This document shows, piece after piece, positions 1,602-6,400 of a DNA stretch of 64,000 bases (the stretch's first letter is position 1; the number at the start of each line of letters is the position of its first letter). The notes under the pieces are model-generated. The model worked only from the letters and a program-made list of their open reading frames with translations, did no database searches and was not told the DNA's origin. The position numbers were made by a program, and so were the translations under genes. The DNA comes from the human T2T-CHM13v2.0 reference genome, Homo sapiens. The DNA is taken from assembly GCF_009914755.1 (NCBI RefSeq), contig NC_060926.1; one strand, 5' to 3'.

Positions 1602-1968
<367 letters not shown>

Positions 1969-2125
1969 GAGGTAGCCGCCGCAGGTCGCTTCAGCTGTGA
2001 AGCCCGGTAGGAGCCCTCTGGGTGTAGCCCTGCCTGCCGGGTGGAGCCCCGCGGGTTGCCGCTGCCGCTGCCATGAAGAAGCAGTTCAACCTCATGAAGC
2101 AGGTGGCCAACCTGACCATGGGCGG
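1969..2125 (+). pseudogene. ARHGAP17: Retrocopied 5'UTR and first coding exon of ARHGAP17 (RICH1)-like gene
   Basis: GC-rich leader and Kozak gctgccATG at 2073 encoding [17 protein letters not shown], versus the recalled ARHGAP17 N-terminus MKKQFNRMKQLANQTVG; similarity stops after 53 coding nt. The symbol denotes the parent gene. Confidence 0.85.
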
Positions 2126-2240
2126 CCTTTCAACCCAGCTCCTGCACCCAGCGGAGGTGCAGATGCGGGAAAAGCCTCTGCAGCAGCATTTGACAGATGA
2201 TGCCCCAACCCATCAGGTCCAAGTCCAACCAGGTTCCTAA
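2073..2240 (+). CDS. Intact 55-aa chimeric s[58 protein letters not shown]; translation unproven
   Basis: Translated by hand: ATG 2073 to TAA 2238-2240; below the 60-aa cutoff of the ORF track. Confidence 0.25.
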
Positions 2241-2259
2241 GAAACACAGCAGAGGAGCA

Positions 2260-3115
2260 GGGATTGGCATCTGCTCACTCTTTGATCTATTTGATTTCAG
2301 GTGGTTTGGTTTATGCGGATCCTGGGTAAGAAGAATACTCCAAACTTGGTGTTATCTTCCTAACAGGCATTATAATAGTCTCCCTGGTATATGTATTCTC
2401 TCAAAGGTTTTAAGTGCTTCCATGCAGCCATCTCCAGAATGTCAAATGGTCTCTCTTCAACTGAATGACAAGAGATGAAAGAAAGGTGTGACCATGAGGA
2501 CACCATAACCAATGAATGACGTGCTGAGACCAGAAATCCAAAATCATGGTAACTGAGAGTAGCACAAAGGCTCTAAGTTTTGGTCACACTCTTACCTAAA
2601 TGAGAACCTGACCAAAAGGGAAGTTTTTTTAAACAAAATTATGGGAGGCCATTGTTTTGGACTGAGCTCATGAGCTGGGACCCAATAGACCAAACCAAAC
2701 CAAAATGGAGTCCCTCGTGCTAAGACTTTAAGGAAACACATAGATCCTAGAACAGACCACAGACCAGGTTTTGTTTTTCTTCCTCAAATCTCTATAACAA
2801 ACATTCCTCACAGCATAGGTATCCACCCTGTGAGGTTCCCATTAAATCTTTTAACCAAATTCATTTCCTCTCACCTAGAGATCATCAAGCTTCAGGACAT
2901 GCTACAAGGGTTCCAGCCAGTACCAGGTGGAGACACCACCCCTGGCCATCAAGGAGCTACCCTTCCTCCACAAGACAGAGCAGGACAAATGTTCCATGAT
3001 CCCCAGTAGGTAGGGACTACACCCCAAGCCAGCATGAAGCAGTTACGGAAGAAAGACCATCAGTCTCTCCACCTGCCATAAAGATTTACTGGAATCCCGT
3101 CTTTCAGGGAGGAAA
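2260..3115 (+). mobile_element. ERV1 (MER4-group/MER51-int-like) env C-terminus and 3'UTR with polypurine tract
   Basis: Degenerate env TM/cytoplasmic tail (WFGLCGSWVRRILQT...ILSKVLSASMQPSPECQMVSLQL); PPT agggaggaaa 3106-3115 directly before the LTR TG. Confidence 0.75.
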
Positions 3116-3440
3116 TGAGGCAGGAGAACAGGACTTGGAGGCAGGGAGCCTGAGGACTTCCCAGAACCAAATCAAATGGAAACACTTCAGCTATGACAGG
3201 AAATACCCTCTCCTTTTACATAGGGCGTACACCGAATAAATGACTTTGTAACTTCACCCTTTTCATTTATGTAGGGCGTACACCAAGTAACCAGTGGAAA
3301 CCTCTAGAGGGTATTTAAACCCCAGGAAACTCTGTAACTTGGCCCTTGAGCCACTTGCTTGGACCCACTTCCACCCTGTGGCGTGCGCTTTCATTTTCAA
3401 CAAATCTCTGCTTTTGTTGCTTTGCTCTTTCAAAAAAAAA
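3116..3440 (+). mobile_element. MER51-type 3' LTR (U3-R only) ending in a poly(A) tail
   Basis: Starts tgaggcaggagaacagg; TATA-like tatttaaa at 3312; degenerate PAS aacaaa 3399-3404; A9 at 3432-3440; U5 absent. Confidence 0.8.
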
Positions 3441-6400
3441 GAATATTACAAAGGAAACAGGTGAACAGCAGATGGAAGAGATGCACTGGGCAAGGCATGT
3501 GGGAAGGGGTGTGCAGCTTCCATGCCTTCTCTGGGCATGCTACCTTCTAGGAACCTCCACATGTTCAATTATCCAGAAGCTCCTCAAATCTCATCCAAGA
3601 ATTTTTATAGAGCTTTATCTTTGGCTCTCTCCCTCCTTTCCCCACCCTAAGTCACCTCATTAGGATAAACTCAGGTGTGACCAAAAGGTCTTGAAACAAA
3701 AGACACTTTTATTACTCAGGAAATTCTAAGAGTTTTAGGAACTTTGTACAAGAACCAAATATTATAACAAAAGATGCTCCTGTCACTCTTATCACTCAAA
3801 AAACAACAAGGGTTTAGAAGGTCTATATCAGGAAACGAGGACAAAAACCATACACATTTCACATTAAACCACAGGTAAATTAATCAAAGATTATTTTTTG
3901 AAAATCCAGAATTGGCATCAGACAAACAATAATTCAAAAAATTTGGAGGGGCTTCCAGATGGCTAACTGAAGGCATCTGGTACTCACCTCCTCCACAAAG
4001 AAGAACCGAAATAGCAAGCAGATAATCACACTTCAAATAGATCATCTAAGAGAGAACACTGAAATTCAACAGAAAAGTGACAAGAAACATCTAAGCAAGG
4101 AAGGAGAGGAAAGTGAGGCAGCCTTCTCCGCCAGGATCAGCTGGGAGCCTGGAGGGGCTCCCGAATGCAGAGAAAGGGTAAGCGAAATACACCCTGAAGT
4201 TCACATCCCCACCGTGAACTCCTGTAATCCTAGCCATAGGAGACCCCCTCAGCCCACACAGGCCCTGAGACTGTACAGAGAGCCGCCTGGAGACCGAGCA
4301 ACTGCATTGCTCCAGAGAGGAGGCTCACACTGGGTCCCACCCCATGCCCAGTCCTAAGCAACTACAGAAAGGTGCCATATTGACAGCCCAGTCCCCACCA
4401 GACTGCTTCCTGCCCAGGGGCCCAACAGCCCCTGCCTGTTCACATCCTTGGAGCCACATTGACATATCCCACCCACTAGCACTGCTGTATTAGGGCTGAA
4501 ACACAAGTCATTGACAAAGACCCCACTCCCGCCAGCAGCAAAGTTGCTGTGCATTTTCACAGACCTGAACACAAACTCTCACACCCTCAGCTGCCACCAC
4601 TGTGGGCTGCTGCTACCAAGGCCAAAGTGCTAGCAAAGACGGCACTCCCCAGCTACCTGTATGGCTGCTGCCACTGAAAGCAACCCCATCCTCCCAAGTA
4701 GCAGGCTGAAGCACAGCCACTGCCACACCCAACCAAAGCACTCCACTGAGGGCTTAGGGATCACCCAACCCCGGCCTACCACAGCCAGAGCCTGCATGCA
4801 CCACTATGGGATTTGAGGACAGGTCCATCCAGTCTGGCTCTATCCCCTGTGCCCCAGTGCATAGGATTGCTGTCTGGAGGCCTGGAGGCTGCCCAGCCCA
4901 GTCCACCACCATTGGCACCTGAGCATTTATCCCAGGGGCCTGAGGTCTGGCCTACCCAACTTGCCACTACAACCACAGTTGGCACCCACCCACATGTACC
5001 GCCTGTGAGCCTGGAAACTGGCCTGTCAAACCTATTGCAGCCACCACCAACACCAGCACAAACCACTTGGAAGCCAGAGTGTTGTCCTGCCAATGCTACT
5101 ACCATCACCCACGCCATGCCAACTGCCCACAGGACTGAAAACATGCCCACCTGGCCAGCCCACTGCTGCCACTTCCAGCACCTGAGCAAGCTGCCTAGAG
5201 GCCTAAGAATTGGCCTGCCTGGACCTGCTAACACCAGTGCCATGTACACTGCCTTGGGGCCCAAGGACAAGTACACTTGGCCTACAGCTGCCACCATTAG
5301 GGCTCAAAGATAGGTCCACCTAGCATTTCCATTCCCAGCAAAACTTCACCACTGCCTCCACTAATAACCACACCATAAGCCACTAGGGAAATCACAGACA
5401 CCACTGACGTTGAAGAAATCATGCAGAGACTACACTACTGCACACACCCAGAATCAAGGCCAAAGTGCTGTACCCAACCAACACCATAGATACATCTTCA
5501 GAAAAAAGTTTTCTCCTAAGAAAGCAAATTCAACAGGTTAGAAGAAACAACTGTAATACCAGATATGCGGATACATGAAAAAGCAAGGAAATATGACACC
5601 TCCAAAAAAACACAGTAATTATCATAAAAGACATGTACAAAATCCTGGAAAAAGAATTCACAATAATGATACTAAAGAAGCTAAATGAAATATAAGAGAA
5701 TACAGAAAAACCATACAAAAAAATCAGTAAAACAATTCATGATATGAATGAGAAATTTACCCAAGAAATAGATATCATTAAAAAAAAAACCAAACTAGAA
5801 TGAAATACAAAATACATTTGAAAGCTTCAGTAATAGACTAGATCAAGCAGAAGAAAAAAAAAAGAAATTCTAGAACTGCATAATTTATTAAATGAAATAC
5901 AAAATACATTTGAAAGCTTCAATAATAGATTAGATCAAGCAGAAGAAAAAAAAAACAGAATTTAAAGATGGTCTTTTGAAATAAGCCAGACAGAAATAAA
6001 GAACTTAAAAATAAAGAATTAAAAAGAATGAACAAAGCCTACATGAAAAACGGGAGACACCATAAAACAGGCAAATATTTGAATTTTCAATGTCTCACAA
6101 GGCAAAGAGAAAACAAAAGGGACAGAAAATCTATTTAACAAAATAATAGCTGAAAACTACCCAAGTTTAGCAAGAGATTTAGACATCCAGGTAGGGGAAG
6201 CTCAGAGATCTCCAATTAAATACAATTCAAAAAGATCTCCTCCATGGTACATTATAGTTAAATTGTCAAAAGTAAAAGACATATAGAGAATTCTAAAAAC
6301 AACAAGAGAAAGGTGTGTCGTTACTTACGAGGGACCTCCCATCACACTAACAGGGCATTTCTCAGCAGAAATCTTACAGGACACAAGAGAATGGATTAAT

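What the first reader, a model, noticed from the sequence alone, without database searches (positions are those of the whole stretch)
1969..3440. Fossil of a germline transcript in which ARHGAP17 exon 1 is spliced into an ERV terminal exon
Seen: similarity to the parent stops at GGC GG (2121-2125), where I recall the parent exon 1 ending (GGC AG/gt). It continues into about 135 nt of unassigned sequence with several CAG-ending blocks (possible small exons), then ERV env and an LTR-provided poly(A) signal. Inference: the source locus made a truncated isoform, exon 1 spliced to an ERV and terminated at the MER51 LTR. It must have been present in germline or early embryo to be retrocopied. This would be an LTR-driven premature-polyadenylation (gene-trap) isoform that could attenuate the RhoGAP.
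Basis: partly seen in the sequence, partly recalled or inferred. Interest (0 to 1): 0.7.

Follow-up and report, generated by a model that had tools for sequence, protein, structure and literature searches.

The report
Fossil RNA of duplicated ARHGAP17 promoter
This is a DNA copy of a spliced RNA made from a duplicated fragment of the ARHGAP17 gene's first exon, not from ARHGAP17 itself, and it ends in a piece of an endogenous retrovirus that was likely spliced on from a neighbouring insertion probably lost since, so it is a fossil of a likely extinct RNA rather than a brake on ARHGAP17.

Summary
The retrocopy is real, but its parent is not ARHGAP17. Window 1969-2125 matches a duplicated copy of ARHGAP17 exon 1 on chr16, 92 kb upstream and next to LCMT1 (87% against 78%; non-CpG 95% against 82%). 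The 'unassigned' 2126-2273 is one exon 11 kb downstream of that copy, joined at exact GT/AG sites and antisense to a TRIP11-like retrogene. The duplicate carries none of the tested downstream ARHGAP17 exons, so this is no gene-trap isoform. The retroviral tail (2274-3431) stops at the LTR's poly(A) site. It has no source in chr16:25.25-25.43 Mb, and no copy scored genome-wide reaches the ~94% expected (best 88-89%). The junction sits on an AG found in 42 of 58 family copies, 9 nt short of the exon-2 donor, and two rearrangement breakpoints lie 4 and 8 kb downstream of exon 2. Best reading: spliced in cis, provirus later deleted (0.6); a template switch remains possible (0.22). A 13-nt target-site duplication brackets the copy together with an upstream Alu. 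It is an unannotated processed pseudogene of a mosaic lncRNA, of modest interest.

The parts
1665..1677 (+). left target-site duplication (13 nt), preceded by TTAT, an L1-endonuclease-type site
   Evidence: empty-site test in 7 of 8 copies of the host repeat
1678..1968 (+). full-length Alu with A-tail (A-run 1955-1968), inside the same duplication; AluS-type by recalled diagnostics
   Evidence: sequence
1969..2125 (+). copy of the duplicated ARHGAP17 exon 1 (chr16:25386628-25386477, minus strand), starting near its presumed start site; ATG at 2073
2126..2273 (+). copy of exon 2 of the parent RNA (chr16:25375389-25375229), antisense to the 3' coding end of a TRIP11-like retrocopy; 15-nt gap inside
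2073..2240 (+). 55-codon open frame across the exon 1/exon 2 splice; no Pfam match; no evidence of function
2274..3115 (+). 3' internal stretch of a class I ERV (env-tail-like; 2273-2778 is 80% identical to a chr6 copy that RepeatMasker labels MER57-int)
3116..3431 (+). LTR U3-R up to its cleavage site; hexamer at 3399-3404; family name untested
3432..3440 (+). poly(A) remnant
   Evidence: sequence
3438..3450 (+). right target-site duplication

Best explanation
The element is a processed copy of a spliced RNA from a duplicated ARHGAP17 first exon beside LCMT1, whose second exon was likely spliced onto a class I endogenous retrovirus that probably lay just downstream, supplied the poly(A) site and was likely deleted later. 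Steps: (1) shown: a segmental duplication left a second exon 1 with its own CpG island; (2) shown: exon 1 was spliced over 11 kb to a cryptic exon antisense to a TRIP11-like retrocopy; (3) inferred: exon 2 was spliced to the AG in the ERV's env tail and the RNA ended in the 3' LTR, with a 9-nt slip between short repeats at the joint, before or after copying; (4) shown by poly(A) and target-site duplication: L1 copied the RNA to chr2, probably into the tail of a resident Alu; (5) inferred: rearrangements downstream of exon 2 removed the provirus. The copy has no promoter of its own and most likely does nothing today (untested).
For: Parent identity. Exact donor GGGCCG|gtcggc and acceptor ttgacag|CCT at junction 1. 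AG immediately before junction 2 in 42 of 58 family copies, behind a short pyrimidine run; such acceptor-like AGs occur 8-15 times per ~1540 nt of ERV in 8 copies, so landing on one by chance is a few percent; the exon-2 donor G|gtatgg is 9 nt away. No source anywhere scored: best non-CpG identity 89.2% (internal) and 87.6% (LTR), inside the copy-to-copy range (mean 87.6, max 91.3 over 136 pairs), against 94.8 and 93.2% for exons 1 and 2. Two breakpoints lie about 4 and 8.3 kb downstream of exon 2, the second beside a tract 96% identical to its paralog, i.e. probably younger than the retrocopy. Template switching in L1 insertions is reported as largely restricted to U6/U6atac (PMC4476161, passages).
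Against: The cis provirus is not there to be seen: no trace, not even a solo LTR, in chr16:25.25-25.43 Mb. The model needs a 9-nt loss exactly at the joint, and gaps of this size are rare in the copy (one in exon 2, none consistent in the ERV part against 12 copies). A better-looking acceptor (long T-rich run then AG) lies 27 nt downstream and was not used. None of 58 copies shows a foreign exon joined at this AG, so its use is unproven. The junction has 4 nt of exact microhomology (chance 1.6%), which a template switch also predicts. The Alu inside the same duplication allows a multi-template event.
Confidence: 0.6

Rival explanations
1. Template switch: L1 reverse transcriptase began on a polyadenylated ERV RNA from an unlinked locus, copied 1.16 kb, then jumped at GCTC onto the spliced chr16 RNA (and perhaps again onto an Alu RNA).
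For: 4-nt exact microhomology and looser similarity around it; no ERV in cis; needs no 9-nt deletion; ERV RNAs of this family were retrocopied on their own (L016); one duplication encloses Alu and copy; Alu and copy ages cannot be separated.
Against: The similarity at the junction is only in the top 5% of 48000 random pairs, and its upstream half is unremarkable (22% of 916 AG sites and 28% of 1414 acceptor-like sites do as well). It leaves the AG and the 9-nt distance from the donor as two coincidences, and still needs the source provirus to have vanished. A lone Alu of another subfamily sits at the same site in a chr8 copy of the host repeat, so sequential insertion is easy.
Confidence: 0.22
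2. DNA-level joint: exon 2 was fused to the ERV by a microhomology deletion, either in a since-lost copy of the chr16 segment or inside a longer retrocopy after insertion.
For: Microhomology; the chr16 region holds direct and inverted duplicates with several breakpoints; both gaps in exon 2 are multiples of three.
Against: The breakpoint on an AG and next to the donor is again chance; the retrocopy's private changes in exon 2 mostly alter the opposite-strand frame (read by eye), giving no sign of a third constrained copy.
Confidence: 0.13
3. One reading: a truncated ARHGAP17 isoform, exon 1 spliced into an intronic ERV, attenuating the RhoGAP.
For: The exon is homologous to ARHGAP17 exon 1 and the copy keeps the ATG that the present paralog has lost.
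Against: Shared derived sites group the copy with the paralog; the next exon lies downstream of the paralog, and its second copy lies upstream of ARHGAP17 where it cannot be spliced to exon 1; no ERV match from exon 1 to beyond the BAR exon at 25256941. The rest of the gene below 25.25 Mb was not read.
Confidence: 0.03

Closest known systems
Processed pseudogene (L1 retrocopy) of a spliced lncRNA
   Same: intron removed at exact GT/AG, poly(A), 13-nt target-site duplication, TT|AAAG-type site, no promoter
   Different: the parent is a non-coding 5' duplicate, and one of its three blocks has no surviving source; no RefSeq row in the window
LTR-terminated host-ERV chimeric transcripts (recalled, general knowledge)
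   Same: host exons followed by ERV internal sequence and cleavage in the LTR R region
   Different: known only from the fossil; cis linkage and use of the acceptor are inferred, not shown; it does not truncate a coding gene
Template-switch chimeric retrogenes (U6/L1, U6/pseudogene, tripartite chimeras; PMC4476161, passages)
   Same: several RNA-derived blocks within one target-site duplication, full-length 5' block
   Different: no snRNA partner; the joint lies on splice-site-like positions; the paper itself names sequential insertion into a 3' tail as the alternative for tripartite forms
L1-mobilised HERV processed pseudogenes (HERV-W type; PMC5537654, search listing only)
   Same: ERV RNA ending in R plus poly(A), copied by L1
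   Different: 5' end is cellular, not an LTR R region; other ERV family

Membership tests
L1 processed pseudogene | intron removed at splice sites | tested here: met
   11,087-nt intron absent, exact donor and acceptor
L1 processed pseudogene | 3' poly(A) at a cleavage site | tested here: met
   A-run 3432-3440; same end as L016
L1 processed pseudogene | target-site duplication with empty-site support | tested here: met
   13 nt; 7 of 8 host-repeat copies contiguous; it also encloses the Alu
ARHGAP17 gene-trap isoform | exon 1 derives from ARHGAP17 itself | tested here: not met
ARHGAP17 gene-trap isoform | sense ERV downstream of ARHGAP17 exon 1 | tested here: not met
   no match in 25.25-25.295 Mb, which covers exon 1 to past the BAR exon at 25256941; further introns not read
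LTR-terminated chimeric transcript | AG acceptor at the host-ERV joint | tested here: met
   42 of 58 copies
LTR-terminated chimeric transcript | joint uses the upstream exon's donor exactly | tested here: inconclusive
   9 nt short of the donor
LTR-terminated chimeric transcript | provirus in cis, sense, downstream | tested here: not met
   absent from human chr16:25.25-25.43 Mb; other primates not testable
LTR-terminated chimeric transcript | RNA reads across the joint | not testable with these tools
   no transcript data
Template-switch chimera | 3' block traceable to an unlinked locus | tested here: not met
   no copy near 94% among the 40 scored in each of four searches
Template-switch chimera | microhomology at the joint | tested here: inconclusive
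   4 nt exact; wider similarity top 5% only
   no repeat library; internal part is related to MER57-int but that copy's LTR does not match; by recall the LTR looks more like MER61A/B

The most novel reading that the evidence does not exclude
The copy is the only surviving record of an extinct primate germline gene: a duplicated ARHGAP17 promoter drove an LTR-terminated RNA with an open frame of about 60 codons (ARHGAP17's N-terminal 17 residues plus new sequence) that ran antisense across a then-intact TRIP11-derived retrogene, and both the provirus and the retrogene's frame were lost afterwards in the human lineage.
Probability: 0.15. Interest if true: 0.6.

Novelty: new member of a known kind. 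Interest (0 to 1): 0.33.

Why it matters
It shows a retrocopy preserving an RNA structure, and probably a provirus, that the reference genome no longer holds, and it dates events in the ARHGAP17-LCMT1 duplication: the copy keeps an ATG and a reading frame that the parent locus has since lost. It says nothing about regulation of ARHGAP17. The by-product, a nearly intact TRIP11-like retrogene on chr16, may deserve its own look.

Tried and rejected
Several small exons in 2126-2260: rejected, one exon. A cis remnant of the provirus: flanks of 14 ERV copies against 180 kb of chr16 gave only Alus, other repeats and an unrelated, oppositely oriented ERV at about 25.353-25.361 Mb. The chr4 LTR at 87% as a solo-LTR remnant of the source: rejected, it is as close or closer to other copies (89.1, 88.1%). 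Other exons spliced to the same AG: 0 of 58 copies (149 further matches, the window's own exact match and the 148 with one mismatch, not examined). Dating Alu against retrocopy: inconclusive (Alu 7.6% from a local majority with imperfect CpG masking; retrocopy-private non-CpG changes 11 of 246 columns). Pfam LCM search found only an intronless chr15 gene; LCMT1 was confirmed by PDB instead. PDB search with the 20-residue ARHGAP17 start found nothing; the BAR search gave only E 0.57 on chr16. Motif search in papers for the LTR name gave unrelated hits. No paper with both TRIP11 and retrogene.

Full report
Anatomy. Window 1665-3450 is bounded by a 13-nt direct repeat found only twice in the window with up to one mismatch (shuffles give 0.37 matches on average). 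It interrupts an older repeat: of 39 other copies listed I fetched 8; in 7 the left and right flanks run on with a 13-nt overlap, and the eighth (chr8) holds a lone Alu of a different type at the same site with its own duplication. Inside lie an Alu (1678-1968), then three RNA-derived blocks and a short A-run.

Block 1 (1969-2125). The genome search gave two matches besides the window (3 of 3 candidates scored): chr16:25386479-625 at 87% and chr16:25294833-961 at 78%. The first match is a duplicate 92 kb upstream with its own CpG island, 4.8 kb from LCMT1 exon 1 at 25391413. Published LCMT1-AS1 primers map 4.4 kb upstream of it on the same strand (PMC12085119, passages), so it lies in the path of that lncRNA; whether it is an annotated exon I could not test. 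Non-CpG identity is 94.8% to the duplicate and 81.8% to ARHGAP17; informative columns favour the duplicate 26 to 12. The duplicate has since lost the ATG and one base; the retrocopy keeps both. The BAR exons tested were found only on the ARHGAP17 side.

Block 2 (2126-2273). One exon at chr16:25375389-25375220 (93.2% non-CpG), with a second copy (85.2%) upstream of ARHGAP17. The join to block 1 uses the donor and acceptor exactly. The exon is antisense to the 3' coding end of an intronless copy of a multi-exon chr14 gene with a GRAB domain (TRIP11 by recall). The retrocopy lacks 15 nt inside and the last 9 nt.

Block 3 (2274-3431). A class I ERV tail and LTR. A chr6 relative can be tied to a RepeatMasker row, MER57-int, by the 2.3-kb spacing to an Alu fragment (PMC8193847, supplementary table part 3 and passages), but its LTR differs, so the family name stays open (PMC5753468, passages, lists MER51 and MER61 LTRs under several internal types). 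The cleavage point matches that of an independent polyadenylated copy. There is no match in chr16:25.25-25.43 Mb. Four searches scored 40 candidates each (of 2021, 417, 1125 and 948). For 17 internal and 18 LTR-bearing loci taken from them, the best non-CpG identities were 89.2 and 87.6%, within the copy-to-copy spread. A true source should be near 94% and should rank first, so it is probably absent from this assembly (inference).

Junction 2. All 58 other exact matches of a 19-nt motif were read; 42 have AG right before the first ERV base of the retrocopy. The exon-2 donor lies 9 nt further on. The two sides share GCTC exactly (chance 1.6%), but the wider likeness is modest. Splicing explains both positions at the price of one 9-nt slip; a template switch explains the microhomology and leaves both positions to chance. 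Both need the source to vanish. For the cis model a route exists: the region holds direct and inverted duplicates, mostly 86-90% identical, with breakpoints about 4 and 8.3 kb downstream of exon 2 and tracts of 96-97.5% identity, which are probably younger than the copy (gene conversion could also give these). Strepsirrhines carry an extra AQP8 between LCMT1 and ARHGAP17 (PMC13163493, section 2.5), consistent with old instability here. Against: no remnant, no observed use of this AG, and a stronger-looking AG 27 nt downstream. My weights (0.6 splice, 0.22 switch, 0.13 DNA fusion, 0.03 ARHGAP17 isoform) are judgement, not a computed result; that the element is a retrocopy of the duplicate's spliced RNA I put at about 0.95.

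Age and function. About 6% non-CpG divergence from the parent suggests roughly 25-35 million years (calibration recalled). Alu and copy cannot be ordered. PMC4476161 (passages) gives both double switching and insertion into a 3' tail as routes to tripartite forms; PMC5470649 (passages) was read for background only. The promoter motif upstream of the parent exon is not in the copy, and the 55-codon frame has no Pfam match; nothing indicates present function, and no expression data were available.

Literature. Searches for LCMT1-AS1 (11 papers), ARHGAP17+LCMT1+duplication, LOC554206 and ARHGAP17/pseudogene/retrocopy (15 of 230 listed) showed no title or abstract start about this copy or the duplicate exon; some searches were background. 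GENCODE, Dfam and retrocopy catalogues were not available, and bioRxiv supplements, which may list it, could not be seen.

Verdict: a real, apparently unannotated processed pseudogene of a mosaic lncRNA; the ARHGAP17 gene-trap reading fails. Interest 0.33.

Noticed in passing
L031:2725-5408 (chr16:25372725-25375408, + strand): Intronless TRIP11-like copy, 75% identical to the chr14 gene, yet with open frames of 618 and 232 codons, a GRAB domain, dN/dS 0.46 over 552 codons (dS 0.55) and apparently only two frameshifts; neutral simulation left 0 of 2000 frames open at 0.10 substitutions per site. The chr2 retrocopy lacks one of the frameshifts, so it broke later. The second copy upstream of ARHGAP17 has stops. 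Looks like an old functional retrogene, recently broken.
   Followed up: partly
chr16:25.26-25.41 Mb (L022-L039): ARHGAP17 5' end and LCMT1 5' part are duplicated, with an inverted third piece at about 25.341-25.363 Mb and blocks in swapped order; five CpG-rich islands.
   Followed up: partly
L023:4830 (chr16:25294830): ARHGAP17 exon 1 appears to end at a GC donor (CAG|gcgagt), whereas the duplicate has GT.
   Followed up: no
window 1678-2125: The Alu keeps 15 CpGs, against 0-11 for 8 of the 9 other full-length Alus in the window (one has 16) and a median of 6 for 61 on chr16; the exon-1 copy keeps CpG o/e 0.58. Possible germline hypomethylation.
   Followed up: no
L111/L115 (chr8:102436090): Independent Alu at the same site of the same host repeat: a recurrent L1-endonuclease target.
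   Followed up: yes
L016 (chr14:42.755 Mb): ERV copy of the same family ending in poly(A) within the LTR, likely an L1 retrocopy of ERV RNA.
   Followed up: no
window about 3950-5200: GC-richer repeat that looks like an old L1 5' region (recalled) and overlaps the RefSeq enhancer 4409-4909.
   Followed up: no
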